Assembly (NCBI GenBank): GCA_938017985.1
Contig: CALIKS010000007.1
Span: forward strand, 28,694 to 52,693
Origin: an uncultured archaeon
GTDB taxonomy: Archaea; Thermoproteota; Nitrososphaeria_A; Caldarchaeales; Calditenuaceae
Length of the DNA stretch: 24,000 nt
Reading direction: 5' to 3'
Under the pieces are notes generated by a model. The model was not told the origin of the DNA and searched no databases. It saw only the letters and a program-made list of their open reading frames with translations. The position numbers and the translations under genes are program-made. Shown here in pieces: positions 245 to 13,544 of this stretch (position 1 is its first letter; the number at the start of each line of letters is the position of its first letter).

Positions 245-1012
245 TCAATGAATAATGTTTGCTTTTTTTAATGCATTTTGTAAGGCCTCTGCAAAAGTTG
301 TTTTAGTCAGTTCTTTTGGATTTATTTCTGATATGTATGCAACTCGCTTATCATAAGGTATGTAGCCTAAAAATGGAACGTTTAATTCTCTTGCCAAATT
401 ATAAGTACCTCCAAAATCATTATCCAATACCATATTCTCAATCAATCCTATTATTTTGACGTTCATGTCAATGAAGAAGATTGCTGCTCGTTTCACAACC
501 TGTTGGGCTAATCTTGATGGTGTAGAAACCAGTATTACTCCTCTATTATTCTTGATATAATTTATTGCCGCCAATGACTCATCCCCAGTACCTGGCGGAA
601 GGTCAATTATTAGATAATCAAGAGTCCCAAAGTCTGTAATTGCTAATAATTCTTTAATGATCTCTCTTTTTGCCATCCCACTGAGTGGTAATGGTGAGTC
701 CTTCGCAAAAAACCCTATAGACATTACTTTTAAATTATTTATGGACGGTGGTACCAGTCCGTTTTTCTCTTCTTTCGGCAATTGTTTGATATCTAAAATC
801 ATTAAAGATGAAGGACCATGCATATCAAGATCCAAAAGCCCGACTCTAAATGAGTTGCCGGTAAGTATCAGTCCCATTGTAGTAGCTATCAGGCTTTTAC
901 CTACACCTCCTTTCCCACTACCCACGAAGATTGTAAATGAAATATTTCTTAGTCTTTTCCAAATAAGGAACTCTCTATAATCAATTTTATCTTGGTTGTA
1001 ACTCAATATCAA
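245..1012 (-). CDS. Mrp/MinD-family P-loop ATPase, a candidate ATPase-type HypB (nickel-insertion partner of HypA)
   Basis: It has the deviant Walker A GSGKGGVGKS and the DLPPGTGD Walker B region. The protein contains no cysteine, so it lacks the CxxC of ApbC/Nbp35 Fe-S carriers. It lies immediately downstream of hypA and overlaps it. The first codon at 1012 is TTG. A GGTGA Shine-Dalgarno (1013-1017) fits better with the in-frame TTG at 1006. Confidence 0.75.
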   Translation of the reverse strand: MILSYNQDKIDYREFLIWKRLRNISFTIFVGSGKGGVGKSLIATTMGLILTGNSFRVGLLDLDMHGPSSLMILDIKQLPKEEKNGLVPPSINNLKVMSIGFFAKDSPLPLSGMAKREIIKELLAITDFGTLDYLIIDLPPGTGDESLAAINYIKNNRGVILVSTPSRLAQQVVKRAAIFFIDMNVKIIGLIENMVLDNDFGGTYNLARELNVPFLGYIPYDKRVAYISEINPKELTKTTFAEALQNALKKANIIH

Positions 1013-1394
1013 TCACCTTTACTCCTCTACCACATAATATCTTAAGGTCTCTACTTCCACAAGAAAAGCACTTTACGTAAGATGAGAGCAGTTCAGGAAT
1101 AAAGTGAATCATTTCCCTCTCCTCATCATTTAGTGTTTTTACTAATTCCTTGAATGTATATGACTTTCCGCATGATTCACATTTTACTAATGCTTCTTCA
1201 ATTATCGTTGAGAATTTAGCATTTCTAAGTTCAGTGCCGGACAATAGTTCTTTAACAAGCTCGGCTAAGATATTTTTATCAAACATCGATAATTCACCGA
1301 TAGCTATTTTGAAACTAGTTATCTTGAATCCCTTGACTAAATATACCTCCCTCAATGAATCAACTATTCCTGATGCTACTGTAAACTCATGCAA
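987..1394 (-). CDS. hypA: [NiFe]-hydrogenase nickel-insertion metallochaperone HypA
   Basis: The N-terminal MHEF is the Met-His-Glu Ni site, and the zinc motif is CESCG...x...CFSCG. Length is 135 aa. The start codon is TTG (reverse complement of caa at 1392-1394). Confidence 0.9.
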   Translation of the reverse strand: MHEFTVASGIVDSLREVYLVKGFKITSFKIAIGELSMFDKNILAELVKELLSGTELRNAKFSTIIEEALVKCESCGKSYTFKELVKTLNDEEREMIHFIPELLSSYVKCFSCGSRDLKILCGRGVKVIDIELQPR

Positions 1395-1422
1395 TTTTAT
1401 CTATTATATTCACTTTCTTACT

Positions 1423-1432
1423 AAAATATATT
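1423..1432 (-). promoter_or_regulatory. Candidate TATA box for the hypA / Mrp-ATPase transcript
   Basis: The minus strand reads AATATATTTT about 30 nt upstream of the TTG start at 1394. The whole spacer is AT-rich, so placement is uncertain. Confidence 0.3.
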
Positions 1433-1483
1433 ATCTTATATACAATTATATTCAATTCTATACCGCATGAAAGATGCGTTAAT

Positions 1484-1491
1484 CTATAAAT
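1484..1491 (+). promoter_or_regulatory. Candidate TATA box for the hydrogenase/Qmo-like operon (leaderless first gene)
   Basis: CTATAAAT is centred about 25 nt upstream of the ATG at 1513. No Shine-Dalgarno lies between them, which matches archaeal leaderless geometry. Confidence 0.45.
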
Positions 1492-1512
1492 TGAAGCTAA
1501 TATATTTTTTAA

Positions 1513-2676
1513 ATGATACTTAAATTGAGGACGACACAAATCGCGTTAACATCGTTATTACAAAAAGAAAAAGAAGCAGAGACTGCGGATTTAATTATTA
1601 AGCTTGGAGGAGAAGGAATAAGAAAATGCTATCAATGCGGCTCCTGCACAGCCATATGTCCAATATCAGAACATTACATGATAAGTTTCAGAAAATCAAT
1701 TAAATATGCACAGCTTGGATTAAAAGAAAAATTATCAAGCGACCTTACACCGTGGCTATGTTATGCATGCGGAGAGTGTAGCAATTCTTGTCCAAGAGAC
1801 GCGAACCCAAGCGAACTAATGATGACTCTAAGGAGATACTTGACGATGATTTATGACTGGACTGGAATATCCCGTTTACTATATCTAAACAGTAAGATAT
1901 TATTGTCCGCGATTATATCATTGTCAGTTTTGACCGGTATTATTATTTATTTTTTGCATGGACCCATAATTACTGACCGAGTGGCCTTAGCCACTTTTGC
2001 ACCCGTCGAGTTGGTCGAAGCTACTGGCCGGTTAATTTTTGTCAGTTTAGCATCCATACTTTTACTAAATACATTCAGAATGTACCGTTTATCATCGAGT
2101 AGAATAAAGCTTTCATTAGGCATTTATATTAAAGAATTTTTCAAAACGTTCCTGCCTAATTTCTTAACCCAAAGATTTTTCAAATATTGTAGTGAAAAGA
2201 GGTATTGGGTAGTTCACTTATTAATATTTTATGGATATGTAGCTTCATTAATATTATTCGAAGTGTTGCTCTTCATAACACATTCAAATGACCCATTCTT
2301 ATTTATTTCGCCCCTCAGCATAATTGGATTATTCTCTGCATTTTCAATAACCTATGGAGGATTTGTTGTAATTCACGGACGTGTTAAGAAAACCAAACCA
2401 CTATGGAAATATTCGCATCCTACTGACTGGATGTTCATTATTTTATTAATCTTAATCTGCCTGACTGGACTCCTGACTGGAATATTTAGAAGCATCGGCT
2501 GGTCTATAGCTACATATATGGTTTTTTCCATCCACCTAATGATAGTTGTACCCTTCCTCATACTAGGCGTCCCATTTACAAAATGGTCTCATATTGTTTA
2601 TCGCCCCTTTGCTCTGTATTTTGGAAGGCTTAATGAAATTCGTCAATCGAAAATCCAGGAGGTAGTGAGGTTGTGA
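1513..2676 (+). CDS. QmoC-like membrane protein 1: an HdrC-like 2x[4Fe-4S] module fused to an HdrE/NarI-like cytochrome-b membrane domain
   Basis: The N-terminus carries CYQCGSCTAICP and CYACGECSNSCP. About 6 hydrophobic helices follow, with conserved His (WVVHLL, FSIHLMIVVPFLILGVPFTKWSH) and the HPTDW...GLTGLL motif. Confidence 0.75.
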   Translation: MILKLRTTQIALTSLLQKEKEAETADLIIKLGGEGIRKCYQCGSCTAICPISEHYMISFRKSIKYAQLGLKEKLSSDLTPWLCYACGECSNSCPRDANPSELMMTLRRYLTMIYDWTGISRLLYLNSKILLSAIISLSVLTGIIIYFLHGPIITDRVALATFAPVELVEATGRLIFVSLASILLLNTFRMYRLSSSRIKLSLGIYIKEFFKTFLPNFLTQRFFKYCSEKRYWVVHLLIFYGYVASLILFEVLLFITHSNDPFLFISPLSIIGLFSAFSITYGGFVVIHGRVKKTKPLWKYSHPTDWMFIILLILICLTGLLTGIFRSIGWSIATYMVFSIHLMIVVPFLILGVPFTKWSHIVYRPFALYFGRLNEIRQSKIQEVVRL

Positions 2677-3803
2677 AGGCAACACCGTACATATCGTTTA
2701 AAGATATTAACAGAGAAATAATAGAGCTGGGCGGAAAAGGTATTTTCAAATGCTATCAATGCGGAGCGTGTACTGCAACCTGTGCAATAGCCGAGGGCAT
2801 GTTCATAAGTTTTAGACGAGTTATCAAATATTCCCAGCTGGGTTTAGTTGATAAACTGCGGAGAGACCTTGTGCCTTGGTTATGCAATGTACATGGAGAT
2901 TGCATCGAGGCGTGTCCAAGAAATGCGAATCCATGCGAAATATTAGCATCTCTCAGGAGGTACCAAAGTGTACTTTACGACTGGACTGGTATATCAAGAT
3001 GGTGGTACTTTTCAACACTAAAGAAAAAACTTTTAGCAATAATTATCCTATCAGGAATATCCATTCTCGGATTGTTATCACTATTCTCAACATCAATAAT
3101 GAATTACTTATCAATGAATATTTTTGTAAATTTGCCTAACTTGTTGCCAATTGGACTATTAATTGTCTTACTTTCAATCAGTCTTTTAGTAAGTAATGGC
3201 TATAGAATGTATAAATTTGTCGGTGGTGGTAAGGAATATACCGTTAGATTCTTCGATGCGTTAAAAAGAGTATTGAGTTTCTGGATAAAAAGCGAGAATG
3301 AAGCCATGAAAATTCCTGACAAGAGAATTAGAATTCTAGAACATATGTTCATTCTTGCAGGCATTATAATGTACATATTTTTAGTCTTGTTATATTTAAT
3401 TTATCCAATAATATACTCATTGAATCCCTATAATTACGTATTGATGATTGGGAGATACATTGCCGCAATCATGCTAGTGGTTGGTGCTGGTCTTCCTTTC
3501 GTGAAACGAGTCAGCAAATCTCAGAAGATTCATTGGTATTATAAGTTATTTAGACACTCGACTGACTGGGTAGGACTTGGATTCGTCTTTGCAATTGGCT
3601 TAACGGGCTTATTAATGAATATCTTTAATGATCTGCATATATATTCCCTAACTTACGTAGTTTATGTTATACATATAGGAATCGTCTTCCCATTCCTTAT
3701 TCTTGAAGTACCTTTTGGTAAACATAATCATTGGTTGTATAAGACAATTGCTAATTATGTGAGCGCAAGAAGAGGATTGATTAGGGGTGAAATACTTGAG
3801 TAA
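2673..3803 (+). CDS. QmoC-like membrane protein 2, a paralog of the upstream gene with an altered second cluster motif
   Basis: It carries CYQCGACTATCA and CNVHGDCIEACP (His replaces the second Cys). The membrane domain has LEHMF, HSTDW...GLTGLL and YVIHIGIVFPFLILEVPFGKHNH. The GTG start overlaps the upstream TGA (GTGA), and GGAGGT lies 9 nt upstream. Confidence 0.75.
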   Translation: MKATPYISFKDINREIIELGGKGIFKCYQCGACTATCAIAEGMFISFRRVIKYSQLGLVDKLRRDLVPWLCNVHGDCIEACPRNANPCEILASLRRYQSVLYDWTGISRWWYFSTLKKKLLAIIILSGISILGLLSLFSTSIMNYLSMNIFVNLPNLLPIGLLIVLLSISLLVSNGYRMYKFVGGGKEYTVRFFDALKRVLSFWIKSENEAMKIPDKRIRILEHMFILAGIIMYIFLVLLYLIYPIIYSLNPYNYVLMIGRYIAAIMLVVGAGLPFVKRVSKSQKIHWYYKLFRHSTDWVGLGFVFAIGLTGLLMNIFNDLHIYSLTYVVYVIHIGIVFPFLILEVPFGKHNHWLYKTIANYVSARRGLIRGEILE

Positions 3804-5148
3804 ACCCGTATTAGTAATCGGTGGCGGAATCAGCGGAATTCAAGCCACAATAGACCTCGCCAAGCATGGAGTTGAGGTGTATTTAGTCGAAAGAAATCCA
3901 AGCATTGGTGGAAAGATGGCACAGCTCGATAAAACGTTTCCCACGCTTGATTGTGCGTCATGCATCTTAACACCCAAGATGGCGGAAGTTCTGAGATATA
4001 ATAACATTAAGTTATTGACCTATTCAGAAGTGCAAGAAGTAAAAGGAAATGTAGGAGACTTTACTGTAAAGATTTTGAGGAAACCACGTTATGTTGATTG
4101 GGACAAATGCACTGGATGTGGAACCTGCACGGAGAGATGTCCAGTTAAGGTTCCGGACGAGTATAATGTAAAACTTGGACAAAGAAAAGCTATTTACATC
4201 GAGTATCCGCAAGCCGTGCCGCGTAAAGCCCTAATTGACTATTCGCATTGTCTAAGGCTTAATCCGCCGCCAGATTTAAAAGAAAAAGCAAAAGGAAAGC
4301 CGCTTTGCGGAGCTTGTGAAAAAGTCTGTCCAACTAAAGCAATTGATTATAATCAACAACCAGAAATCATTGAACTCAACGTAGCTGCTATAATATTGGC
4401 TACTGGATTAGAACTTTATGACGCTAGCAATATACCTGAATACGGATATGGAAAATATCAAAACGTCTATACCAATCTAGAATTTGAGAGAATAGTGTCA
4501 TCAACAGGGCCCACCAATGGAAATATAATTAGGAGGTCTGATGGAAAACCACCAAAGAGGATAGCTTGGATACAATGCGTAGGTTCAAGAGACGTCAGAT
4601 TTAATCATTATTGCTCCGCATTTTGTTGCATGGCGGCGACTAAACAAGCGATCCTAGCAAAGGAACTCTTGCCCGAAGTGGATACAACCATTTATTATAT
4701 GGATATGAGGGCATTCGGAAAGGGATTTTATGAATTTTATAAAAGAGCTATGACAGAGTTTGGTGTAAAATATGTTAGAGGAAAAGTAGTAAAAATAACT
4801 GAAAGACAAGACAATAAAAATCTATTACTATTTTATGAAGACACAATTCACAGCTATATGAAAAAAGATGAATTTGACATGGTGGTCTTATCCGTAGCGG
4901 TTAGACCAAATAGAATTACTGCGGCTCCCGTAAAGACGGATAAGGGGGGCTTTATTCAAATTATGGATCCTTACATGGATACCGTTACATCTACTACTGA
5001 GGGAATATTCGTAATTGGTGGTGCTGCAGAGGCTAGGGATATTCCCGACTCTGTGACTATGGCTAGCTCGGCGGCAATAAAAGCATCTACAATTGCTAAA
5101 AAATGTGTAGTAGAGCAAACCATCATCACTTCTGGTGAACGAGCATGA
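3787..5148 (+). CDS. HdrA-family flavoprotein, short form (QmoA-like): FAD domain plus inserted ferredoxin domain
   Basis: Motifs present are VIGGGISGIQATIDLA, PSIGGKMAQLDKTFPTLDCASC, CTGCGTCTERCP, CGACEKVCP and CVGSRD...YCSAFCC. It lacks both the HdrA N-terminal domain and the C-terminal ferredoxin domain. The start may instead be TTG at 3796, which has GGGGTGA 5 nt upstream. Confidence 0.8.
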   Translation: MKYLSKPVLVIGGGISGIQATIDLAKHGVEVYLVERNPSIGGKMAQLDKTFPTLDCASCILTPKMAEVLRYNNIKLLTYSEVQEVKGNVGDFTVKILRKPRYVDWDKCTGCGTCTERCPVKVPDEYNVKLGQRKAIYIEYPQAVPRKALIDYSHCLRLNPPPDLKEKAKGKPLCGACEKVCPTKAIDYNQQPEIIELNVAAIILATGLELYDASNIPEYGYGKYQNVYTNLEFERIVSSTGPTNGNIIRRSDGKPPKRIAWIQCVGSRDVRFNHYCSAFCCMAATKQAILAKELLPEVDTTIYYMDMRAFGKGFYEFYKRAMTEFGVKYVRGKVVKITERQDNKNLLLFYEDTIHSYMKKDEFDMVVLSVAVRPNRITAAPVKTDKGGFIQIMDPYMDTVTSTTEGIFVIGGAAEARDIPDSVTMASSAAIKASTIAKKCVVEQTIITSGERA

Positions 5149-7091
5149 TTCAAGAACCTAGAGTGGGAGTGTTTATCTGTCACTGCGGCCATAACATCGC
5201 TGCTAAAGTGGATGTAAAACAAGTTGCTGACTATGCAAAAACTCTCCCAAACGTGATTGTAAGCCACCACTATGTATTCATGTGCTCAACGGTTGGTCAA
5301 GAATTGATAAGAGAAGAAATAAAAAAACATAATTTAAATAGAGTTGTCGTTGCTGCCTGTTCGCCATCGATGCATGAGCCTACATTTAGAACCGCAATAG
5401 AAAGTGCCGGACTAAATAAGTACCTACTTGAAATGGCAAATATTAGGGAGCATTGTTCGTGGGCTCATTCAGACAAAGAGGCAGCCACTGAGAAGGCCAA
5501 GGATTTGGTCAGGATGGCTGTTGCAAAGGCTAGTCTCCTAGAACCACTAGAGGAAGAAGAATTTCCGGTAAGTCCGACTGTCTTGGTTTTAGGCGGAGGA
5601 GTGGCAGGGATGAGGGCCGCGATCGACTTGGCGGAGTGGGGATTCAACGTATACTTAGTCGAGAAAAACCCTACTCTGGGTGGTAGGGCAGCACTAACTG
5701 GTTGGCTGACTAATAATAGGAGAGGCGCCGATGTCGTAAATAATTTAATCAATAAAATTGTAGATAATAAGAATATTCATGTATTTACGAACGCTGAGCT
5801 GGTAGAGTTTAGTGGTTTTCCAGGCAATTTTAAGGCAAAGATAAAAGTAAATCCTAGATTTGTAAACGAAAAGTGTATTTTATGTGGTGAATGTGAGATC
5901 GAATGCCCGATTGAAGTGTCAAACGAGTATCAATATGGATTGTCGAGAAGGAAGGCAATCTTTTTCCCCTTCAAGGCAGCTTATCCACCGATATATGTCA
6001 TAGATCAACGAGTATGCATTAAATGCGGAGAATGCGTTAAAGCTTGCCAGTATGGGGCCATTAATTTGGCTGAGCAGTCTTTAACGCTGGATTTAAATGT
6101 AGGGGCGATAGTTATTGCCACCGGTTATGATCCATACCATCCGCCAAAGGGAGAGTATGCGTATGGTCTGCACAATAACATAATAACTTTATTCCAGCTG
6201 GAAAGACTCTTAGACGAGGATGGACCAACTCAAGGTAAATTAATTATAGGGGGAGCAGTACCTAAAAGAATTGCCTTTATTCTCTGTGTAGGGTCAAGAA
6301 ATACTACTCCAAGTTCTAAAAATTACTGTTCAAGAATGTGCTGTACTTCTACTTTGATAAATGCAATTAAAATAAAAGAAAAATACCCCGATATAGACGT
6401 TTATGTTCTTTATCAGGATATTAATACTTATGGAAACGATGAAACCCTTTATGAACAGGCAGGCGAAAAACTGGTTAAGTTTATTAAGTTTGAGAAGCCT
6501 CCAACTGTGGACATCAGCCCTGAAGGCATAGTCATAGATGTCTATGAAACCACTATACAAGAGGAGATTAGCATTCCAGTTGACGCCCTTGTTTTATCCG
6601 TAGGTATGGTACCTAGACGAGACCAAAACGAACTAATCGCTACTACGAGGGCTAGTTGCGGAGAAGACGGGTTTATTAGAGAAGTACATCTAAAACTGAA
6701 TCCTGTAGAGGCACCAACTCACGGCATATTTCTCGCAGGAGCCGTGACTGGCCCTAAAAATATAATAGAGAGCATCAGGGCCGGAAGCGCGGCCGCCTCT
6801 AAAGTTGCGACTTTACTATCAGAAGGGAAGGTTAGAACTGAGCCCTTTACCGCAAATGTTAATGAAGAGAGATGCAGTGGCTGCAGAATCTGTGTTGGAC
6901 TATGTCCATATAAAGCCATCTCTCTTCGAGAAATTAATGACAGAATGGTGGCTTACGTTGAGAGGGCATTATGCATGGGTTGTGGTACTTGTTCAGCTGC
7001 TTGTCCATCAGGTGCTATGCAGCAGTATGGCTTTAAAGATATTCAGATCATGGCTCAGGTAGTAGCAGCAACTGGAGGTGGAATTAAGTGA
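5145..7091 (+). CDS. hdrA: HdrA-family flavoprotein, full-length form (HdrA/QmoB-like without a fused MvhD domain)
   Basis: The N-terminal HdrA domain is VGVFICHCGHNIA...VVVAACSPSMHEPTFR, followed by GGGVAGMRAAIDLA. The inserted ferredoxin carries CILCGECEIECP / CIKCGECVKACQ, and CVGSRN...YCSRMCC is present. The C-terminal ferredoxin carries CSGCRICVGLCP / CMGCGTCSAACP. There is an ATGA overlap with the upstream gene. Confidence 0.85.
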   Translation: MIQEPRVGVFICHCGHNIAAKVDVKQVADYAKTLPNVIVSHHYVFMCSTVGQELIREEIKKHNLNRVVVAACSPSMHEPTFRTAIESAGLNKYLLEMANIREHCSWAHSDKEAATEKAKDLVRMAVAKASLLEPLEEEEFPVSPTVLVLGGGVAGMRAAIDLAEWGFNVYLVEKNPTLGGRAALTGWLTNNRRGADVVNNLINKIVDNKNIHVFTNAELVEFSGFPGNFKAKIKVNPRFVNEKCILCGECEIECPIEVSNEYQYGLSRRKAIFFPFKAAYPPIYVIDQRVCIKCGECVKACQYGAINLAEQSLTLDLNVGAIVIATGYDPYHPPKGEYAYGLHNNIITLFQLERLLDEDGPTQGKLIIGGAVPKRIAFILCVGSRNTTPSSKNYCSRMCCTSTLINAIKIKEKYPDIDVYVLYQDINTYGNDETLYEQAGEKLVKFIKFEKPPTVDISPEGIVIDVYETTIQEEISIPVDALVLSVGMVPRRDQNELIATTRASCGEDGFIREVHLKLNPVEAPTHGIFLAGAVTGPKNIIESIRAGSAAASKVATLLSEGKVRTEPFTANVNEERCSGCRICVGLCPYKAISLREINDRMVAYVERALCMGCGTCSAACPSGAMQQYGFKDIQIMAQVVAATGGGIK

Positions 7092-7516
7092 GTACAAATA
7101 ATTACGAGCCTAGAATTGTCGTGTTTGCTTGTAATTGGTGTTCATATGCCGCCATAGACTTGGCTGGAACAAGTAGAAAACTGTATCCCCCTAACGTTAG
7201 GGTCATTAGAGTTATGTGTTCTGGACGTGTAGATCCACAGTTTGTTTTAGAAGCATTTAAGAATGGGGCTGACGGCGTAATTGTTGCAGGATGTCGCCCC
7301 CCATCAGACTGTCACTACATTAATGGAAACATAAAGGCACTCCGAAGATTTACTCTCTTCAAGAGGCTTTTAGAAGAGTTAGGAATAGAAAAAGAAAGAT
7401 TTAGACTTGAGTGGATCTCGGCTGCTGAGGCTGATAAATGGGTCAGAGTAGTTAATGAAATGCTTGAAGAATTAAGAAGGTTAGGCCCATTGAAGGCGGA
7501 GGCAGTTAGTGTATGA
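7088..7516 (+). CDS. mvhD: MvhD, the methyl-viologen-reducing hydrogenase delta subunit ([2Fe-2S] adaptor to HdrA)
   Basis: Motifs IVVFACNWCSYAAIDLAG, VMCSGRVDP and GADGVIVAGCRPPSDCHY are present in a 142-aa protein. The start is a GTGA overlap, with GGAGGTG 7 nt upstream. Confidence 0.9.
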   Translation: MSTNNYEPRIVVFACNWCSYAAIDLAGTSRKLYPPNVRVIRVMCSGRVDPQFVLEAFKNGADGVIVAGCRPPSDCHYINGNIKALRRFTLFKRLLEELGIEKERFRLEWISAAEADKWVRVVNEMLEELRRLGPLKAEAVSV

Positions 7517-8499
7517 ATAATCGCCCTAAAGTTGCATTTTATTGGTGTGCAAGCTGTGGTGGATGTGAAGAAGCAGTGGTAGATTTAGCCGAAAAAATAA
7601 TTGATGTAGTAAGCCTAGTCGATATTGTATTCTGGCCAGTCGCAATGGACTATAAACTAAGCGATGTGGAGGCTCTGCCTGACAATTCAATAACAGTGAG
7701 CTTCATTAACGGAGGAATTAGATTGTCCGAGCATGAAAAAGTTGTAAGACTCCTCAGACAGAAATCAAAGCTAGTAGTAGCATATGGAGCATGTGCATGC
7801 TGGGGCGGCATCCCGGGACTAGCTAATCAATATTCGCGTGAAGAGATACTAGAAAGAGTCTATCTTACTACTCCAACTACTGCAAATCCCGAGAAAATCA
7901 TGCCTCCGCAAGATGGCTACGCTAAATTAGGTGACGTTAAGATTGAGGTGCCGACATTTCTGCCTGAGCTTAAGCCACTCGATGAAGTAATCGATGTGGA
8001 TTACTATATTCCTGGATGCCCGCCTACCCCAGAAGTGACTTGGAACGCAATAAATGTATTACTATCAGGAAAGCTACCAGATAAAGGCACAGTAATAGGG
8101 GCAAGCAACCGATCCCTATGCGATGAGTGTCCTCTAAATAAAACGAAACCCGAAAATGTACTTATAAAAGAATTCAAAAGAGTTGTTAACTATTCTCCAA
8201 GGGCAGATACTTGTCTTCTAGCCCAAGGATTACCGTGTTTAGGACCGGTTACTCGTGGAGGCTGCGGAGCCTTATGCGTAAAGGCGAATATGCCTTGCAC
8301 TGGATGTTTCGGGCCTCTTGAAAATATTCACGACTATGGAGGAAAAGCGTTATCATTTCTAGCAAGCATACTTGATTATGAAAACGAAGAAGAAATAAAG
8401 AGGGAAATCTCAAAGCTTCCAGATGTTTCTGGATTAATTTATAAATACACACTTCCAAAATCTTTATTAAAAAATCTTCTACGGAGTGTTAGAAAATGA
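7513..8499 (+). CDS. mvhG: [NiFe] hydrogenase small subunit, MvhG-type (group 3)
   Basis: The N-terminus is FYWCASCGGCEEAVVDL. Further Cys clusters are ACACWGG, GCPP, LCDECP and CLGPVTRGGCGALCVKANMPCTGCFGP. There is an ATGA overlap with mvhD. Confidence 0.9.
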   Translation: MNNRPKVAFYWCASCGGCEEAVVDLAEKIIDVVSLVDIVFWPVAMDYKLSDVEALPDNSITVSFINGGIRLSEHEKVVRLLRQKSKLVVAYGACACWGGIPGLANQYSREEILERVYLTTPTTANPEKIMPPQDGYAKLGDVKIEVPTFLPELKPLDEVIDVDYYIPGCPPTPEVTWNAINVLLSGKLPDKGTVIGASNRSLCDECPLNKTKPENVLIKEFKRVVNYSPRADTCLLAQGLPCLGPVTRGGCGALCVKANMPCTGCFGPLENIHDYGGKALSFLASILDYENEEEIKREISKLPDVSGLIYKYTLPKSLLKNLLRSVRK

Positions 8500-9956
8500 A
8501 GGAAATAATAATCGATCCTATAACTAGACTTGAGGGACATGGCAAAATAATCATAGTCATGAATGATGAGGGGAACGTGGAACGCGCATATCTTCACATT
8601 CCAGAGCTCAGAGGATTTGAAAAGTTTGCTGAGGGAAGAGCTGTCGAGGATATGCCTCAAATAACCTCGAGAATCTGCGGTGTATGTCCAATGGCACACC
8701 ATATGGCCTCGACAAAAACCCTTGACGACCTTTACAAATGTAAGCCCACAATAACAGCGAGAAAGATCAGGGAATTAATGTATAACATATTCATGCTCGA
8801 AGATCATGCATTACATGTATATTTACTCGGCGGACCTGACTTCATAGTAGGGCCAACATCCTCAAAAGAAGAAAGAAACATAATTGGAATAATCAATAAA
8901 GTAGGCAAAGAGAATGTCTTGAAAGTAATTTCAATGCGTAAAAAGCTACGTGAAATAAATTTGATGCTTGGTGGAAAAACTATACATCCGGTTTCAGGCG
9001 TACCAGGGGGCGTATCCAGGCCAATTAATTCTGATGAGCTGGAAAAAATTAAGCAAGTTGCAAATGAGTCTATCGAGTTCGCTAGATTTACCCTAAAGCT
9101 ATTTAAAGACATAGTACTAAGTAACGACCAGTACCTAAATCTAATTACAAGTGAAGCATACACTCATCGAACATATTACATGGGACTCGTAGACGAAAAG
9201 AACCGTCTCAACTTCTATGATGGAAAAATCCGAGTAGTGGATCCGAGAGGTAATGAATATGCTAAATTCGATGTACATCAATACGCTGAATACATTGCTG
9301 AGCATGTCGAGCCATGGACTTATATTAAGTTTCCATTCCTAAAAAATTTTGGATGGAAAGGATTCGTTGACGGTGAGGATAGTGGAATTTATAGCGTAGC
9401 ACCACTAGCAAGACTTAACGTCTCCGATTCTTTACCAACACATGAGGCACAAACAGCGTTTGAAGAAATGATATCGATGCTAGGAAAACCCATTCATCAC
9501 ACGTTAGCAAATCATTGGGCCAGAGTCGTCGAGATGATTTATTCAGCTGAAAGAATTCAAGAATTAGTAAACGATCCAGACATACTTGACTCGAATATTA
9601 GAAATATTCCAACCAGTGTTCCAAGCGAAGGTATGGGGGTAGTTGAGGCACCGAGAGGCACGCTCATCCACCACTATATAACAGATGAGAGGGGAGTGGT
9701 AAAACAAGCAAATCTAATAGTAGCTACACAGAATAACGCTGCTAGAATCGCGTTATCAATAGATAAAGCAGCTAAGCACTTGATTCGTCAAGGCCAAGTA
9801 AATGAAGGCTTACTAAATATGGTCGAAATGGCGTTCAGAGCATACGACCCATGCCATGCATGCGGCACACATACACTGCCAGGTAATATGCCATTCGCAA
9901 TGTACATTTATGACACGAATGGAAAACTACTTAACATAGTCAAGCATAATTTATAA
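8496..9956 (+). CDS. mvhA: [NiFe] hydrogenase large subunit, MvhA-type (group 3c-like)
   Basis: RLEGHGKI is present. The L1 motif is RICGVCPMAHH and the L2 motif is DPCHACGTH. L2 is followed by a 27-aa C-terminal extension, the expected protease substrate. Confidence 0.92.
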   Translation: MKEIIIDPITRLEGHGKIIIVMNDEGNVERAYLHIPELRGFEKFAEGRAVEDMPQITSRICGVCPMAHHMASTKTLDDLYKCKPTITARKIRELMYNIFMLEDHALHVYLLGGPDFIVGPTSSKEERNIIGIINKVGKENVLKVISMRKKLREINLMLGGKTIHPVSGVPGGVSRPINSDELEKIKQVANESIEFARFTLKLFKDIVLSNDQYLNLITSEAYTHRTYYMGLVDEKNRLNFYDGKIRVVDPRGNEYAKFDVHQYAEYIAEHVEPWTYIKFPFLKNFGWKGFVDGEDSGIYSVAPLARLNVSDSLPTHEAQTAFEEMISMLGKPIHHTLANHWARVVEMIYSAERIQELVNDPDILDSNIRNIPTSVPSEGMGVVEAPRGTLIHHYITDERGVVKQANLIVATQNNAARIALSIDKAAKHLIRQGQVNEGLLNMVEMAFRAYDPCHACGTHTLPGNMPFAMYIYDTNGKLLNIVKHNL

Positions 9957-9962: not shown

Positions 9963-10448
9963 GTGAAAATTACTGTTCTTTTCCTAGGTAATCCGATTTT
10001 TAGCGATGACGCAATAGGCATAGAGGTTGGGAGGCGACTAATCAATGATTTAAAAAAAATAGGAATTGACGTGTATATTTTGGAAAGAACAGGACTCTCG
10101 TTAATAGATTACATAGTGGGATATGATTTAGTCATTATTGTCGATAGTTTTAAAATCAATCAACGACCTCCAGGAGAAGTAACTTTAAGTAACTTTTTAC
10201 ATTTTTCACTGCCTATTTTTTCTCCCCACTACGCCGGAGTATCAGAAGCATTAATGGTTAGTCAAGCATTAGGCATTAGGAATAATTCAATCTACGTAAT
10301 TGCTATAGAGGTTTACGATCCATATACATTAGGCGAGGGGCTTTCAAGAGAAATTGCTGACAAAATCGAAAAAATCACGAGCGATGTCTACGGTCTGATA
10401 ATGAATATAATTAATAGAGTTGTTGATAAGAAATGCAATCAAGAATAA
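9963..10448 (+). CDS. Hydrogenase maturation endopeptidase (HycI/HybD/FrhD family)
   Basis: The sequence begins VLFLGNPIFSDDAIGIEVG, matching the GNxxxxDDxxG motif. IIVDS and SPHYAG supply the Asp/His metal ligands. It is 161 aa, has a GTG start, and lies immediately after the large subunit. Confidence 0.8.
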   Translation: MKITVLFLGNPIFSDDAIGIEVGRRLINDLKKIGIDVYILERTGLSLIDYIVGYDLVIIVDSFKINQRPPGEVTLSNFLHFSLPIFSPHYAGVSEALMVSQALGIRNNSIYVIAIEVYDPYTLGEGLSREIADKIEKITSDVYGLIMNIINRVVDKKCNQE

Positions 10449-11656
10449 ATAATATCCATAATGTGTTTAGAGATAACCGAGAGATTGTTTCTCCACTAAT
10501 TAGTTTAATAAAAAAATACGCTGAAAAGATCATGAGTGAACAGTTGGGTAGTAGGACAGTTATTAAGATAATGCATTTCTGCGGTACACATGAATGGACA
10601 ATAACTCATTATGGTTTAAGGAGCATATTGCCATCAAACATTGAACTTGTAGCCGGTCCAGGCTGCCCAATATGTGTCGTCCCTTCCTACTACATTGATC
10701 TTTCAATCAGACTTTCATTGGAAGGATATACAATTTATACGTATGGTGATGCGCTTCGACTTCCATCTACAAGACTAAAAACATCTGCAAGATCACTACT
10801 CGAGGCGAAAGCAATGGGAGCAGACGTTAGGGTCGTATATTCTTTCTTGGATGCTGTAAAAGAAGCAGGAACGTCAGGGAAGGACAGCATCTTTCTTGGA
10901 ATTGGCTTCGAGACGATACTACCAGTATATGGTTCTCTTTTTCAGAGAAGAGTGGTGCCGGAAAACCTTAAGTTTCTGAGTCTTGTTCGGCTCACTCCTC
11001 CTGCAATGAAGTTCACCATAAAGCTGTATAGAGAAAGAGGTTTATTACCACTAATGGGAATCATAGCGCCTGGACATGTATCAGCAATTATAGGCGGAGA
11101 AGAGTGGCGATTTTTACCTGAGGTATTTGGACTACCAGTGGTAGTTGCTGGATTTGAACCTGTTGATGTCTTGCTATCTATTGCATTGCTCTTAAAAATG
11201 ATTTATAATAATAAGCCTAGGCTTGAAATCGAGTATAAAAGATTGGTCAAACCGAGTGGGGATGTGCATGTCAAGAATATGATTAGGGAAGTTTTCCAGC
11301 CAGTATATGCTGCGTGGAGAGGAATTGGAATGATACCTAGAAGTGGGATGAGGCTACGGCCAGAGTTTAGAAAGCTTTACGATGCCCTTGAATATTTCGG
11401 CATTCCAGACATCTCTCCGACCGAGTATGTCTTGACACATGCTCATTACGGAGAGCCGGGAAAATATGACATACCTCCCAACTGCAGGTGTGGTGAAGTA
11501 GTACTCGGTATTTCTAAGCCTACTGATTGTCCGTTATTTATGAAATCATGTACACCAGAATCTCCTTGGGGGCCATGCATGGTCTCGACGGAAGGGCCTT
11601 GTAACATATGGGCAAAGTATGGCGGATATAGAGAATACCTAATCAATGAGAGGTGA
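10433..11656 (+). CDS. hypD: Hydrogenase maturation protein HypD
   Basis: Motifs FCGTHEW, GPGCPICV, GFETI, APGHVSAIIG and C-terminal Cys motifs (CRCG, CPLF...C...C...C) are present. Confidence 0.92.
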   Translation: MQSRINNIHNVFRDNREIVSPLISLIKKYAEKIMSEQLGSRTVIKIMHFCGTHEWTITHYGLRSILPSNIELVAGPGCPICVVPSYYIDLSIRLSLEGYTIYTYGDALRLPSTRLKTSARSLLEAKAMGADVRVVYSFLDAVKEAGTSGKDSIFLGIGFETILPVYGSLFQRRVVPENLKFLSLVRLTPPAMKFTIKLYRERGLLPLMGIIAPGHVSAIIGGEEWRFLPEVFGLPVVVAGFEPVDVLLSIALLLKMIYNNKPRLEIEYKRLVKPSGDVHVKNMIREVFQPVYAAWRGIGMIPRSGMRLRPEFRKLYDALEYFGIPDISPTEYVLTHAHYGEPGKYDIPPNCRCGEVVLGISKPTDCPLFMKSCTPESPWGPCMVSTEGPCNIWAKYGGYREYLINER

Positions 11657-11661
11657 TGAGA

Positions 11662-12486
11662 ATGTGTTGGGGCACGCCTGGAAAAATATTAGAAATAAAC
11701 GATAGTGATAAAATAGCGAAGGTTGATTTTGGTGGCATTATTAGGGAAGCAATCATTGGAATAGAGGATGTGAACGTAGGGGATTACGTCATGGTTCACG
11801 CTGGCGTAGTTATTGGCAAAATGAATCCAGTAGATGTTGCGTTAAACCTGATGATATATACAGAGCTGGCTGAGACTAATTATACAGAAATGGGACTTAG
11901 CAGTGAAGAAGCAAAGACAAGGGCGAGAAAAGATCTGGAAAATATGTTAGCAAAACTAGGGATTGATCCAGTCATTATCGATAATTTGAATAATAATGAA
12001 GAAAAAGATGATGAGGAAATTCAAGTTGAACAGAAAAACCAATTAGAAATTCCTGAGACTGCATTTAGAAAAACTTACAAGATATCTCTATCAGATACTG
12101 ATTACTTACAAGTTATGCACTATACAAATTACTTTAAGTTTTGTGAAAGATGTCAACAAGAATTATTATCTAGTGTGGGTTTTGGATACTCAGTACTTAT
12201 CCACAAGTATGGATGCTTCATTCCCACAGTTGAGACCGGTGGAAAGATACTTGCACCAGTAAGGCTAGACAATGAAATTGAAGTAATTGTATGGGTTGAA
12301 GATATAGGGAAAAAACACGTAAGGTTCCGAAACTTGATCTTGAATAAGACAACTGGAAAACTGGCCGCAGACATATACACAATAGGCGTATGTACTGATA
12401 CCTCCATAACAGAGTCAACCGAGCTCCCTGAAGAATTCGCCAAAGCTCTTGAGCCATTTATCTTCAAGAATGAAAGAGGTGATTGA
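11662..12486 (+). CDS. hypC: HypC hydrogenase chaperone fused to a C-terminal 4HBT/YbgC-type hotdog acyl-CoA thioesterase domain
   Basis: The HypC part is MCWGTPGKILEI...VDFGG...VGDYVMVHAGVVI. An acidic low-complexity linker follows (NNLNNNEEKDDEEIQVEQKNQ). The hotdog domain from about 12061 reads SLSDTDYLQVMHYTNYFKF...APVRLDNEIEVIVWVEDIGKKHVRFRN, collinear with E. coli YbgC. I place the start at ATG 11662 so that Cys is residue 2. GAGGTGA lies at 11649-11655. Confidence 0.85.
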   Translation: MCWGTPGKILEINDSDKIAKVDFGGIIREAIIGIEDVNVGDYVMVHAGVVIGKMNPVDVALNLMIYTELAETNYTEMGLSSEEAKTRARKDLENMLAKLGIDPVIIDNLNNNEEKDDEEIQVEQKNQLEIPETAFRKTYKISLSDTDYLQVMHYTNYFKFCERCQQELLSSVGFGYSVLIHKYGCFIPTVETGGKILAPVRLDNEIEVIVWVEDIGKKHVRFRNLILNKTTGKLAADIYTIGVCTDTSITESTELPEEFAKALEPFIFKNERGD

Positions 12487-12488
12487 TA

Positions 12489-13544
12489 ATGAATAACGTC
12501 ACAATGCTTCACGGCGCGGGCGGAAAATACATGTTACAATTCATTCGCCAGTATGTTTTAAAGTATTTTGGCGATTTAGGCAGAAATATAGATGTCCCAC
12601 TATATCTTTTAGAAGATTCAGCGATTATTAACGGCATAGCTTTTACTACAGACTCGTACACTGTATACCCATTATTCTTTCCCGGAGGGGATATCGGTAG
12701 AATGGCAGTTTGTGGCACTGTTAATGACCTTGCCGTTAAAGGAGCGACAAAGATACTAGGGATCTCATGCGGCCTTATAATAGAGGAAGGAGTTGAACTT
12801 GCTATGATTGAACAAATATTGAACAGTATGAGAACTGCTTCAATTGAAGCTGAAACATCAATAATCACAGGAGATACGAAGGTAGTGGAAAGAGGACGCG
12901 TCGACAAATTATTAATAAACTGCTCAGGAATAGGAGCCCCCGAAAAAGAGCTGTTTCATAATTATGAAGTAATTAGAAGGAGTCGTGGAGATTCCTCATC
13001 TATGTGGCTGATTAATAAGAATATTCGTCCAGGTGACAGATTGATTCTGAATGGGCCAATCGGCGACCATGCAGTAGCTATCTTATCTGCTAGAGGAGAA
13101 CTTGGCATTAAATCAGAAGTAAAATCAGACGTTGCCCCACTGAACAAACTAATGCGAGAAGCATTAAAGACCGGTGGCATCACTTGTGCCAAAGATCCTA
13201 CAAGGGGAGGCATGGCTGGCCTTCTAAATGAGTGGGCGGAGAGCACAGGACTTGGATTTATTCTTCATGAGGAGGCAATACCTATAAGTCCCGCGGCAAA
13301 AGCGGCCTCTGAATTATTAGGAATTGATATGCTAGAGGTTGGGAATGAGGGGAAAGTCGTCATGTGTGTAGTTAATGAAAAGGCAGAAGAGGTACTGGCT
13401 TCGATTAAAAAAAATGGGTGGAGACATGCAAGTCTAATTGGGTATGTCACTGATTCCTTTAAAGGCGTAGTCTTAGAAACATCGATAGGTGGTAAAAGAA
13501 TAATTCCACCACCAGTTGGAGACCCAGTACCTAGGATATGTTAG
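12489..13544 (+). CDS. hypE: Hydrogenase maturation protein HypE (carbamoyl dehydratase)
   Basis: The N-terminus is MLHGAGGKYM, with an AIR-synthase-like body and the canonical C-terminal PRIC. I prefer ATG at 12489 (GAGGTGA at 12475-12481) over the ORF-track TTG at 12483. Confidence 0.92.
   Translation: MNNVTMLHGAGGKYMLQFIRQYVLKYFGDLGRNIDVPLYLLEDSAIINGIAFTTDSYTVYPLFFPGGDIGRMAVCGTVNDLAVKGATKILGISCGLIIEEGVELAMIEQILNSMRTASIEAETSIITGDTKVVERGRVDKLLINCSGIGAPEKELFHNYEVIRRSRGDSSSMWLINKNIRPGDRLILNGPIGDHAVAILSARGELGIKSEVKSDVAPLNKLMREALKTGGITCAKDPTRGGMAGLLNEWAESTGLGFILHEEAIPISPAAKAASELLGIDMLEVGNEGKVVMCVVNEKAEEVLASIKKNGWRHASLIGYVTDSFKGVVLETSIGGKRIIPPPVGDPVPRIC

What the first reader, a model, noticed from the sequence alone, without database searches (positions are those of the whole stretch)
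1513..9956. Mvh-type [NiFe] hydrogenase encoded with a Qmo-like membrane module (2x QmoC, QmoA-like, HdrA/QmoB-like) and no HdrB: a candidate quinone-linked, flavin-bifurcating hydrogenase
Seen in the sequence: seven consecutive + strand genes are joined by start/stop overlaps (GTGA at 2673, ATGA at 5145, GTGA at 7088, ATGA at 7513, ATGA at 8496). Genes 1 and 2 each have an HdrC-like two-cluster ferredoxin head fused to about 6 TM helices with conserved His, which is the QmoC (HdrC + HdrE/NarI) architecture. Genes 3 and 4 are HdrA-family flavoproteins. Genes 5-7 are MvhD, MvhG and MvhA (RICGVCPMAHH / DPCHACGTH). No translated ORF in the window contains an HdrB-type CCG motif, so the usual heterodisulfide-reducing catalytic subunit is absent here.

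Established knowledge: MvhADG normally docks through MvhD onto HdrA of the soluble HdrABC complex for flavin-based electron bifurcation. QmoABC is a membrane, quinone-interacting HdrA/HdrC/HdrE-related complex that is normally linked to AprAB in sulfate reducers.

Inference: this operon could link H2 oxidation to the membrane quinone pool through an HdrA-type bifurcating or confurcating FAD, for example 2 H2 + quinone + oxidised ferredoxin giving quinol + reduced ferredoxin, or the reverse. I cannot establish from the sequence alone whether this architecture has already been characterised.
Basis: partly seen in the sequence, partly recalled or inferred. Interest (0 to 1): 0.8.

Follow-up and report, generated by a model that had tools for sequence, protein, structure and literature searches.

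The report
Membrane-anchored Mvh hydrogenase with HdrA/QmoC module
An uncultured hot-spring archaeon encodes, in one tightly packed operon, a cytoplasmic hydrogen-splitting enzyme joined to two flavoproteins and two membrane cytochromes, which probably passes electrons from hydrogen to membrane quinone and to ferredoxin. The same design and idea were already published for Archaeoglobus-related methanogens, but nobody has tested it biochemically.

Summary
Seven translationally coupled + strand genes (1513-9956) encode two QmoC-like proteins (HdrC-type di-cluster head plus six TM helices), a truncated HdrA (QmoA-like), a full-length HdrA, then MvhD, MvhG and MvhA. HycI and HypD, C, E and F follow. 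No CCG/HdrB motif occurs in any frame of the window.

The architecture is not new. The cluster "MvhAGD + two HdrA + HdrC-QmoC cytochrome b, no HdrB" was described in Ca. Methanoglobus nevadensis and Ca. M. hypatiae. There it is highly transcribed, and the same hypothesis (H2 to menaquinone plus ferredoxin) was proposed. An Archaeoglobaceae MAG carries the orthologous cluster in the same order (53-72% identity). A rearranged version is common in Bacteroidota MAGs. I found no biochemical characterisation.

What this analysis adds:
- The two HdrA paralogs show the N-terminal-domain/Cys197 complementarity taken to indicate an HdrA heterodimer.
- The second QmoC is a rare paralog (about 10 orthologs). 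In the five to eight orthologs aligned, its second cluster motif has a conserved Cys-to-His change.

Verdict: real, and a seven-subunit variant of a predicted but uncharacterised complex. The mechanism is inferred, not shown.

The parts
1395..1512 (+). AT-rich divergent intergenic region between hypA (- strand) and gene 1; probable promoter. A TATA-like 'ctataaatt' lies about 25 nt before the ATG, which suggests a leaderless transcript.
   Evidence: Sequence read. Promoter assignment is inference only.
1513..2676 (+). QmoC1: N-terminal HdrC-like head with two CxxCxxCxxxCP motifs, fused to a six-helix NarI-type cytochrome b domain.
   Evidence: HdrC 8rvu_c, E 3e-14. (AF2 pLDDT 92.5). (Foldseek: HdrC prob 1.0, EtfD 9ojn 0.98, NarI 1y5l_C 0.90)..
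2673..3803 (+). QmoC2: divergent paralog of QmoC1 (about 35% identity). Its second cluster motif is CNVHGDCxxxCP (Cys to His). It has six TM segments and keeps the His aligned with H235, H302, H341 and H360.
3787..5148 (+). Short HdrA paralog (QmoA-like): thioredoxin-reductase-like FAD domain plus inserted ferredoxin domain. It aligns to HdrA 5odc_A residues 144-577. It keeps the DCxxC motif (C59 = Cys197) and the CSxxCC motif. [quoted passage not shown]
5145..7091 (+). Long HdrA paralog: all four HdrA domains (5odc_A residues 2-646, E 1.5e-185), but the DCxxC/Cys197 motif is lost. MvhD is not fused to it.
7088..7516 (+). MvhD ([2Fe-2S] adaptor subunit). The five Cys are conserved with 8rvu_F.
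7513..8499 (+). MvhG small subunit, full-length match to the MvhG small subunit of 5odc. The N-terminus begins MNNRPKVAFYW; no signal-peptide or Tat-motif prediction was run, so a cytoplasmic location is assumed rather than tested.
   Evidence: 5odc_E residues 3-294, E 8e-67.
8496..9956 (+). MvhA [NiFe] large subunit, with RICGVCPMAHH and DPCHACGTH motifs and a 27-aa C-terminal extension after the final His, the expected site of endopeptidase cleavage.
   Evidence: 5odc_F, E 3e-110.
9963..10448 (+). HycI-type hydrogenase maturation endopeptidase.
10433..15841 (+). hypD, hypC (fused to a 4HBT thioesterase domain), hypE and hypF. They are contiguous or overlapping with the structural genes, so the unit is probably one transcription unit of 12 genes and 14.3 kb.
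245..1394 (-). Divergent hypA (987-1394) plus an Mrp/ParA-type P-loop NTPase (245-1012). The NTPase probably stands in for HypB, and no canonical HypB is present.
   Evidence: The same pair is conserved upstream of the operon in L002-L004. The HypB-substitute role is inferred from memory of Thermococcus HypA/Mrp-type HypB work.

Best explanation
The operon encodes a membrane-bound, cytoplasm-facing complex.

Proposed electron path:
- MvhA oxidises H2.
- Electrons pass through the MvhG clusters and the MvhD [2Fe-2S] cluster into the C-terminal ferredoxin domain of the long HdrA (gene 4).
- Gene 4 pairs with the short HdrA (gene 3) as a heterodimer. The Fe-S cluster of gene 4's N-terminal domain is completed by Cys59 (= Cys197) of gene 3.
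- At the HdrA FAD the electron pair is split. The high-potential electron leaves through the thioredoxin-reductase-domain cluster into the HdrC-like head of QmoC, then through b-type haems to a membrane quinone. This path replaces HdrC to HdrB to heterodisulfide.
- The low-potential electron leaves through the N-terminal cluster and the inserted ferredoxin domain to ferredoxin.

Net reaction: 2 H2 + quinone + 2 Fd(ox) gives quinol + 2 Fd(red) + 2 H+.

The two different QmoC proteins may each dock on one of the two non-equivalent HdrA protomers.

Shown here: subunit composition, domain content, motif presence or absence, and conservation of the cluster. Inferred: assembly, haem and quinone binding, direction of electron flow, and bifurcation.
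For: - Tight translational coupling of all seven genes, with the maturation genes following directly.
- Full-length matches of genes 4-7 to HdrA, MvhD, MvhG and MvhA of the solved Mvh-Hdr complex 5odc.
- The QmoC heads match HdrC, which is the HdrA-contacting subunit.
- The TM domains match qmoC NF038018 over its full length. They are NarI/EtfD-like by fold, and 18 of 47 family members hit Pfam Nitrate_red_gam.
- Three His are universally or near-universally conserved, and a fourth is conserved within this subfamily.
- N-terminal-domain/Cys197 complementarity between genes 4 and 3 is conserved in every orthologous cluster examined. Chadwick et al. 2022 interpret this pattern as an HdrA heterodimer (PMC9012536).
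- No HdrB/CCG in the window.
- The same cluster is conserved across Thermoproteota-type MAGs, an Archaeoglobaceae MAG and Bacteroidota.
- The published cluster is highly transcribed in Ca. Methanoglobus hypatiae, at 995-2,431 RPKM.
- Thermodynamics, from established values: menaquinone (about -75 mV) is close to CoM-S-S-CoB (about -140 mV). Swapping the high-potential acceptor therefore keeps the energetics of Mvh-HdrABC bifurcation.
Against: - No biochemical data exist for this or any orthologous cluster (literature searches).
- The window proteins fall below the NCBIfam equivalog cut-offs for QmoC, HdrA and VhuA.
- Pfam NarI does not hit the window proteins directly.
- Only three His are universally conserved, whereas two bis-His haems need four ligands. 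The ligand assignment is therefore unresolved.
- The role of the short HdrA is unclear. In QmoABC, QmoA is the subunit that contacts a third partner, AprAB.
- The organism's quinone type, and whether it makes quinones at all, are unknown.
- An HdrB or HdrD partner elsewhere in the genome cannot be excluded.
Confidence: 0.5

Rival explanations
1. Confurcating or third-partner complex, as proposed for Qmo. H2 acts as the low-potential donor through Mvh and the long HdrA, and quinol acts through QmoC. Together they reduce an unidentified cytoplasmic acceptor that docks on the QmoA-like short HdrA. Candidates are APS reductase, DsrC, or an HdrD/HdrB-type protein encoded elsewhere.
For: Ramos et al. 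2012 proposed exactly this scheme for QmoABC. They listed a hydrogenase as a candidate co-donor and found QmoA to be the partner-binding subunit. Gene 3 has the QmoA architecture. Another QmoC subfamily sits next to the sulfur-carrier genes DsrE and TusA.
Against: No apr, dsr, sat, hdrB/D or sulfur-carrier gene lies in the 24-kb window or next to the orthologous clusters examined. The Ca. Methanoglobus genomes that carry the cluster lack sat, aprAB and dsrAB. Gene 3 is closer to methanogen HdrA (E 4e-127 to 5odc_A) than to canonical QmoA (42% identity).
Confidence: 0.2
2. Plain, non-bifurcating cytoplasmic H2:quinone oxidoreductase. The HdrA flavins only convert one-electron to two-electron transfer, and ferredoxin is not involved.
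For: H2 to menaquinone is strongly exergonic on its own, so no coupling is needed (established potentials). The loss of Cys197 in gene 4 and of two domains in gene 3 shows that the HdrA machinery is degenerate relative to the homodimer.
Against: The inserted ferredoxin domain is kept in both paralogs. The N-terminal cluster ligands are complemented rather than lost, and this pattern is conserved across phyla. That argues the ferredoxin branch is under selection. The complex would be costly if used only for H2:quinone transfer.
Confidence: 0.15
3. The same complex runs physiologically in reverse. Reduced ferredoxin and quinol are confurcated to produce H2 at low H2 partial pressure, for example during fermentative or syntrophic growth.
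For: Mvh-type enzymes and HdrA modules are reversible in principle. Chadwick et al. discuss reversal for ANME.
Against: The mean donor potential (about -260 mV) lies far above H+/H2 at standard conditions, so the reaction is feasible only near 1 Pa H2 (established thermodynamics). There is no supporting context in the window.
Confidence: 0.1
4. An ordinary soluble MvhADG-HdrABC heterodisulfide or DsrC reductase, with HdrBC encoded elsewhere. The QmoC genes would be functionally unrelated neighbours.
For: Only that the rest of the genome could not be inspected.
Against: The QmoC genes are translationally coupled to the hdrA genes. Their co-occurrence with hdrA-mvhDGA is conserved in three distant lineages, despite gene-order changes. 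QmoC supplies the HdrC-like head itself.
Confidence: 0.03

Closest known systems
'Mvh-Qmo-Hdr' gene cluster of Ca. Methanoglobus nevadensis and Ca. M. hypatiae (Archaeoglobaceae methanogens). Described from genomes and transcriptomes only.
   Same: Same subunit set: MvhA/G/D, two HdrA homologs, an HdrC-QmoC cytochrome b fusion, no HdrB. The same functional hypothesis (H2 to menaquinone plus ferredoxin) was proposed. An Archaeoglobaceae MAG cluster (L085) has the same gene order and 53-72% identity for all six shared subunits.
   Different: The window has a second, divergent QmoC (gene 2) with a Cys-to-His cluster motif. The host is a different archaeal lineage: the nearest relatives are labelled Nitrososphaerota or Thermoprotei archaeon MAGs. 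The hyp genes are arranged differently, and hypC carries a thioesterase fusion here. I did not verify that L085 belongs to Ca. Methanoglobus.
MvhADG-HdrABC, the H2:heterodisulfide/ferredoxin electron-bifurcating complex of methanogens (PDB 5odc).
   Same: MvhA, MvhG, MvhD and HdrA all match over their full length (E 3e-110, 8e-67, 3.5e-46 and 1.5e-185). An HdrC-type di-cluster module is present.
   Different: There is no HdrB in the window. HdrC is fused to a six-TM cytochrome b. In place of an HdrA homodimer there are two complementary paralogs, one lacking Cys197 and the other lacking the N-terminal and C-terminal ferredoxin domains.
[quoted passage not shown]
   Same: The QmoC architecture and a full-length profile match. 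There is a QmoA-like truncated HdrA. The long paralog lacks the Cys197 motif, as canonical QmoB does. The Qmo literature also proposes quinone-linked bifurcation or confurcation.
   Different: Scores fall below the qmoC equivalog cut-off (193 and 143 bits against 300). MvhD is a separate subunit rather than fused to QmoB. Identity to canonical QmoA/B/C is only 29-42%. There is no aprBA linkage. A complete [NiFe] hydrogenase is attached.
Tandem or fused heterodimeric HdrA paralogs of ANME archaea and Moorella MetFV-HdrABC-MvhD (Chadwick et al. 2022).
   Same: The same N-terminal-domain/Cys197 complementarity between adjacent HdrA genes.
   Different: Those are linked to HdrBC, FrhB, MetFV or other modules, not to MvhAG plus QmoC.
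Bacteroidota/Ignavibacteriota clusters with the order hdrA'-qmoC-hdrA''-mvhDGA-hycI (MAGs only).
   Same: The same six protein families, and the same Cys197 complementarity between the two HdrA paralogs.
   Different: Different gene order, with QmoC between the two HdrA genes. The HdrA paralogs have different lengths (about 600 and 570 aa). Identity to the window is 31-57%. In L088 the cluster sits next to Na+-NQR. The searched literature held no description under these names.

Membership tests
Mvh-type (group 3c) [NiFe] hydrogenase | Large subunit with N-terminal RxCGxCxxxH and C-terminal DPCxxCxxH Ni-binding motifs, closest to MvhA/VhuA. | tested here: met
   The motifs are read. The best NCBIfam hit is VhuA (381 bits; the next family scores 180), although it is below the 800-bit equivalog cut-off. 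The best PDB hit is MvhA 5odc_F at E 3e-110, essentially tied with 7t2r_D at 7e-110.
Mvh-type (group 3c) [NiFe] hydrogenase | MvhG-type small subunit of about 300 aa, plus a separate MvhD [2Fe-2S] subunit, encoded with HdrA. | tested here: met
   MvhG aligns to 5odc_E residues 3-294. The 7t2r_E small subunit covers only the N-terminal 190 residues, which breaks the large-subunit tie in favour of Mvh. MvhD matches FlpD at E 2e-54 and 5odc_D at 3.5e-46. The hdrA gene is adjacent.
Mvh-type (group 3c) [NiFe] hydrogenase | Formal HydDB or phylogenetic placement in group 3c. | not testable with these tools
   No HydDB classifier or reference tree was available.
QmoABC complex | QmoC: HdrC-like two-cluster domain fused to a haem b membrane domain. 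| tested here: inconclusive
   The architecture and a full-length alignment to NF038018 are met (model positions 9-360 and 6-357 of 360). Scores of 193 and 143 bits are below the 300-bit cut-off. The fold is NarI/EtfD-like. Haem binding was not tested.
QmoABC complex | QmoB: HdrA-like protein with a C-terminally fused MvhD-like domain. | tested here: not met
   Gene 4 ends after the C-terminal ferredoxin domain, and MvhD is the separate gene 5.
QmoABC complex | Genetic linkage to aprBA (sat-aprBA-qmoABC) in a sulfate-reducing or sulfur-oxidising organism. | tested here: not met
   No Apr, Sat or Dsr domain was found in any annotated ORF of the window or beside the orthologous clusters. The rest of the genome was not searchable.
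HdrABC heterodisulfide reductase | HdrB with two CCG domains, the catalytic subunit with non-cubane clusters. | tested here: not met
   A six-frame regex found no CCG-type motif and no CCG tripeptide in an ORF of 60 aa or more. This applies to the window only.
HdrABC heterodisulfide reductase | HdrA with four domains and a complete set of cluster ligands, including Cys197. | tested here: not met
   Gene 4 has all four domains but lacks the DCxxC/Cys197 motif. Gene 3 has Cys197 but lacks two domains.
Heterodimeric HdrA (tandem paralogs, sensu Chadwick et al. 2022) | [quoted passage not shown] The adjacent paralog has Cys197 but no N-terminal domain. | tested here: met
   Shown. The criterion is quoted from PMC9012536. 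Physical dimerisation was not tested.
Published Mvh-Qmo-Hdr cluster (Ca. Methanoglobus) | MvhAGD, two HdrA homologs and an HdrC-QmoC cytochrome b in one cluster, with HdrB absent. | tested here: met
   The composition of the window is shown. The orthologous Archaeoglobaceae locus L085 is shown. The window differs by an extra QmoC paralog.

The most novel reading that the evidence does not exclude
The complex is an asymmetric, two-anchor, flavin-based bifurcating H2:quinone/ferredoxin oxidoreductase. In this reading the HdrA heterodimer docks two non-equivalent cytochrome b subunits, QmoC1 and QmoC2. QmoC2 would carry a His-ligated cluster with a shifted potential. The two anchors would then serve different quinone sites or different quinones. 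That could make H2 oxidation directly electrogenic or allow regulated electron partitioning. It would be the first H2-driven flavin bifurcase with a quinone as its high-potential acceptor, and a variant not described in Ca. Methanoglobus.
Probability: 0.12. Interest if true: 0.8.

Novelty: new variant of a known kind. Interest (0 to 1): 0.55.

Why it matters
If the inferred reaction is real, it would be an H2-driven flavin-based bifurcation with a membrane quinone as the high-potential acceptor. A single enzyme would then link cytoplasmic H2 oxidation both to respiration and to production of low-potential ferredoxin. No such enzyme has been characterised.

The module is not a curiosity of one methanogen genus. 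It occurs in hot-spring Thermoproteota-type archaea, in Archaeoglobaceae, and abundantly in Bacteroidota and Ignavibacteriota MAGs. It may therefore be a widespread but overlooked route of H2 use in anoxic sediments and springs.

It also bears on the unresolved question of how QmoABC works, because it supplies a natural Qmo-like complex with the co-donor physically attached.

The Cys197 complementarity and the paired QmoC subunits give concrete predictions that structural work can test.

Tried and rejected
- Direct Pfam NarI (PF02665) match for the window QmoCs: none, even at E up to 1. It was found only in 18 of 47 relatives. NarI-likeness therefore rests on the qmoC profile, the relatives and the fold.
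- Retrieving the full 94.8-kb source contig to look for hdrB/D, apr, dsr, mcr or quinone-biosynthesis genes: the look-up of encoding contigs returned only 13.5-kb and 4.6-kb Logan contigs. The cluster look-up gave no names or accessions.
- Looking for a cultured host of the Bacteroidota version: among the 120 best homologs, every hit that carried a source name was a MAG, and most carried no name.
- Literature searches for a biochemical characterisation or another name for the cluster: only the two Methanoglobus papers and the Qmo hypothesis paper were relevant.
- tRNA and Rfam scans of the window: nothing found.
- Assigning all four haem ligands from the alignment: abandoned. Only H235, H341 and H360 are universal.
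- Considered and rejected: that gene 2 is a decaying duplicate. Its orthologs keep the cluster Cys/His pattern, the TM His residues and the full length down to 56% identity.

Full report
**1. Observation**

The window contains seven consecutive + strand ORFs at exactly the stated coordinates.
- The claimed 4-nt start/stop overlaps are all present: GTGA at 2673, ATGA at 5145, GTGA at 7088, ATGA at 7513 and ATGA at 8496.
- Genes 2 and 3 also overlap by 17 nt.
- The unit does not stop at 9956. A HycI-type endopeptidase gene starts 6 nt later. It is followed by overlapping hypD, hypC, hypE and hypF, ending at 15841.
- hypA and an Mrp/ParA-type NTPase lie divergently upstream.
- The full unit is therefore about 14.3 kb and 12 genes. 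It sits behind a 118-bp AT-rich intergenic region.

**2. Identity of the parts**

*Genes 1 and 2 (QmoC-like)*
- Each has an N-terminal di-cluster ferredoxin domain (Fer4_8/Fer4_17).
- That domain matches HdrC of solved Hdr complexes: for gene 1, E 3e-14 by sequence, with Foldseek probability 1.0 for the gene-1 model. For gene 2 the HdrC relationship rests on the NCBIfam HdrC profiles.
- Both proteins align over the whole NCBIfam qmoC model NF038018 (193 and 143 bits). These scores are below the 300-bit equivalog cut-off.
- Each has six hydrophobic segments. The other five proteins have none that is convincing.
- An AlphaFold2 model of gene 1 is confident (pLDDT 92.5). Beyond HdrC, its best solved-structure matches are the membrane ETF:quinone oxidoreductase EtfD (9ojn, probability 0.98) and NarI (1y5l_C, probability 0.90).
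- Pfam Nitrate_red_gam does not hit the window proteins directly. It does hit 18 of 47 aligned family members.
- In that 47-sequence alignment, H235 and H341 are invariant, H360 is present in 46/47 and H302 in 40/47.
- This fits a dihaem cytochrome b, but I could not assign the fourth ligand with confidence.

*Genes 3 and 4 (HdrA family)*
- Gene 4 aligns end to end with HdrA of the solved Mvh-Hdr complex (5odc_A residues 2-646, E 1.5e-185).
- Gene 3 aligns only to residues 144-577 (E 4e-127). That covers the FAD/thioredoxin-reductase-like domain and the inserted ferredoxin domain. [quoted passage not shown]

*Genes 5-7 (hydrogenase)*
- They match MvhD, MvhG and MvhA over their full length.
- The large subunit alone ties between MvhA (5odc_F) and the bifurcating HydABCSL large subunit (7t2r_D).
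- The full-length MvhG-type small subunit and the separate MvhD settle the assignment as Mvh type.

*HdrB and other partners*
- No CCG motif occurs in any reading frame.
- No apr, dsr or sat domain occurs in any other ORF of the window.

**3.

*(a) Complementary HdrA paralogs*
- In HdrA, the motif DKTFPTxDCxxC contains Cys197.
- Gene 4 has lost both cysteines of this motif. Gene 3 keeps them (C56 and C59).
- According to Chadwick et al. 2022 (PMC9012536), Cys197 of one HdrA protomer ligates the N-terminal-domain cluster of the other protomer, and that cluster lies on the branch leading to ferredoxin.
- They read the pattern [quoted passage not shown] as the signature of an obligate HdrA heterodimer.
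- Genes 4 and 3 fit this exactly.
- The same split is conserved in every orthologous cluster I aligned, including Bacteroidota and, in a modified form, canonical QmoA/QmoB.

*(b) A specialised second QmoC*
- Gene 2 is not a simple duplicate. It is about 35% identical to gene 1.
- It has only about ten orthologs at 55% identity or more among 5.8 billion clustered proteins.
- All the orthologs aligned (seven, four of them again) carry CxxHxxCxxxCP in place of CxxCxxCxxxCP in the second cluster motif, and lack the Cys226 that is otherwise conserved.
- They keep the TM histidines and their full length, so this is a maintained, specialised paralog.

**4. Distribution**

The same seven-gene order, including both QmoCs, occurs in:
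- "Nitrososphaerota archaeon" MAGs, at 75-87% identity for the seven structural subunits (L002-L004);
- "Thermoprotei archaeon" MAGs, at 54-83% identity (L013, L087).

A one-QmoC version occurs in another Thermoprotei MAG (L005). It also occurs in an Archaeoglobaceae MAG (L085), in the same order and with 53-72% identity for all six shared subunits.

Among the 80 best species-level relatives of QmoC in the GTDB genome collection:
- 11 carry mvhG and mvhA next to qmoC. Nine of these are Bacteroidota with the order hdrA'-qmoC-hdrA''-mvhDGA-hycI.
- Others carry canonical QmoABC.
- Others carry a widespread mvhD-qmoA-hdrA-qmoC type, which sits next to dsrE and tusA in the one such locus I inspected (an Aminicenantes contig, L089).
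- Others carry giant fused forms in Desulfobacterales and Methanoperedens.

HdrA-QmoC therefore looks like a modular membrane anchor with exchangeable donor or partner modules.

**5. Prior description**
- Buessecker et al. (bioRxiv 10.1101/2022.12.01.518715) described in Ca. [quoted passage not shown] They speculated on "electron flow between H2, ferredoxin and menaquinone".
- Lynes et al. (10.1101/2023.09.08.556235) found the cluster in cultivated Ca. M. hypatiae and named it Mvh-Qmo-Hdr. They measured 995-2,431 RPKM and hypothesised bifurcation of H2 electrons to menaquinone and ferredoxin.
- Ramos et al. 2012 (PMC3333476) had earlier suggested a hydrogenase as the missing co-substrate partner of Qmo.
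- Six literature searches found no biochemical characterisation and no description of the Thermoproteota-type or Bacteroidota versions.
- The library covers open-access papers and bioRxiv only. The Appel et al. 2021 HdrA review, which Buessecker et al. cite, did not turn up in my searches and I did not read it.

**6. Mechanism (inference)**

By analogy with the 5odc electron path, as summarised:
- H2 is oxidised at MvhA.
- Electrons run through MvhG and MvhD into the C-terminal ferredoxin domain. Only gene 4 has that domain, so I expect one Mvh module per heterodimer.
- They then reach the FAD.
- The high-potential branch leaves through the CSxxCC cluster of the thioredoxin-reductase domain, which both paralogs retain. 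It enters the HdrC-like head of QmoC and passes through haem b to quinone.
- The low-potential branch runs through the N-terminal cluster (gene 4 plus Cys59 of gene 3) and an inserted ferredoxin domain to ferredoxin.

From established potentials, menaquinone (about -75 mV) is a conservative replacement for heterodisulfide (about -140 mV). The overall reaction 2 H2 + MQ + 2 Fd(ox) is exergonic by roughly 50 kJ.

The two QmoCs may each occupy the HdrC site of one protomer of the asymmetric dimer. This is speculation that only a structure can test.

**7. Rivals**
- A Qmo-style confurcation onto an unknown third partner docking on the QmoA-like subunit.
- A non-bifurcating H2:quinone reductase.
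- Physiological reversal towards H2 production.
- A soluble Mvh-HdrABC with HdrBC encoded elsewhere.

The last is very unlikely, given the translational coupling and the cross-phylum conservation of the qmoC linkage. The others cannot be excluded without biochemistry or the full genome.

**8. Verdict**
- The finding is real and correctly read at the level of anatomy.
- Its central idea was already published for Archaeoglobaceae, so it is not categorically new.
- It is a variant (seven subunits, two distinct QmoCs, a different archaeal lineage) of a predicted and still uncharacterised complex.
- It stays moderately interesting for three reasons. The reaction class is untested. The module is widespread. 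And the sequence features found here (the heterodimer signature and the His-substituted QmoC2) give sharp structural predictions.

Noticed in passing
window 11653-12486 (+); also L002 20147-20959: HypC is fused to a C-terminal 4HBT/YbgC-type thioesterase domain (277 aa, against 80-94 aa for HypC in L085 and L088). The fusion is conserved in the related Nitrososphaerota-labelled MAG. I know of no role for a thioesterase in [NiFe] maturation.
   Followed up: partly
window 18623-20194 (-): This radical SAM protein scores 733 bits against NCBIfam tetraether lipid synthase Tes (cut-off 450). The host is therefore an archaeon that makes GDGT membrane-spanning lipids.
   Followed up: yes
window 245-1394 (-): hypA is paired with an Mrp/ParA (NUBPL-type) P-loop NTPase instead of a canonical HypB. 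The pair is conserved upstream of the operon in L002-L004, and a similar ParA/CbiA gene lies near the Archaeoglobaceae cluster (L085 20100-20843).
   Followed up: partly
L089 5585-11161, and roughly 35 of the loci L006-L084: A different and very widespread QmoC context has the order mvhD-like, qmoA-like, hdrA-like, (small ORF), qmoC. It occurs in Anaerolineae, Acidobacteriota, Gemmatimonadales, Desulfobacterales and Aminicenantes. In L089 it is immediately preceded by dsrE and tusA sulfur-carrier genes, which suggests a sulfur-linked Qmo-like complex without AprAB.
   Followed up: partly
L088 2249-7990: In a Bacteroidales MAG, the hdrA'-qmoC-hdrA''-mvhDGA-hycI-hypFCDE cluster lies directly downstream of a complete Na+-NQR operon, another quinone-reducing complex.
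   Followed up: no
L020, L037, L049, L059 (Desulfobacterales); L079 (Ca. Methanoperedens): Giant forms occur. One ORF with a QmoC match runs about 760-790 aa, followed by an HdrA ORF of about 1,130 aa and then MvhD. Methanoperedens has two QmoC-like genes followed by a 1,090-aa HdrA, MvhD, a second HdrA and a second MvhD. None has hydrogenase subunits.
   Followed up: no
L087 1-1739 and 8463-8654: In the Thermoprotei MAG with the two-QmoC operon, a TnpB/Cas12f1-like fragment sits immediately upstream of qmoC1. A TnpB plus resolvase pair lies 7 kb further upstream. This fits horizontal movement of the module among hot-spring archaea.
   Followed up: no
window 3787-5148, residues about 156-171 of gene 3: Relative to HdrA 5odc_A, the inserted ferredoxin domain of the short HdrA carries a 16-residue insertion (RLNPPPDLKEKAKGKP) between its two cluster motifs.
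   Followed up: no
window 2673-3803 (gene 2) against 1513-2676 (gene 1): Besides the Cys-to-His change, the QmoC2 orthologs lack Cys226, which is conserved in 42/47 family members. They also lack His149 at the outer end of TM1, and most replace the terminal CP of the first cluster motif with CA.
   Followed up: partly
window 20314-23912: Ordinary housekeeping genes follow the operon region: a D-aminoacyl-tRNA deacylase, two small HTH/AsnC-type regulators, and a ZnuABC-type metal ABC transporter on the - strand. No tRNA or Rfam RNA was found anywhere in the window.
   Followed up: yes
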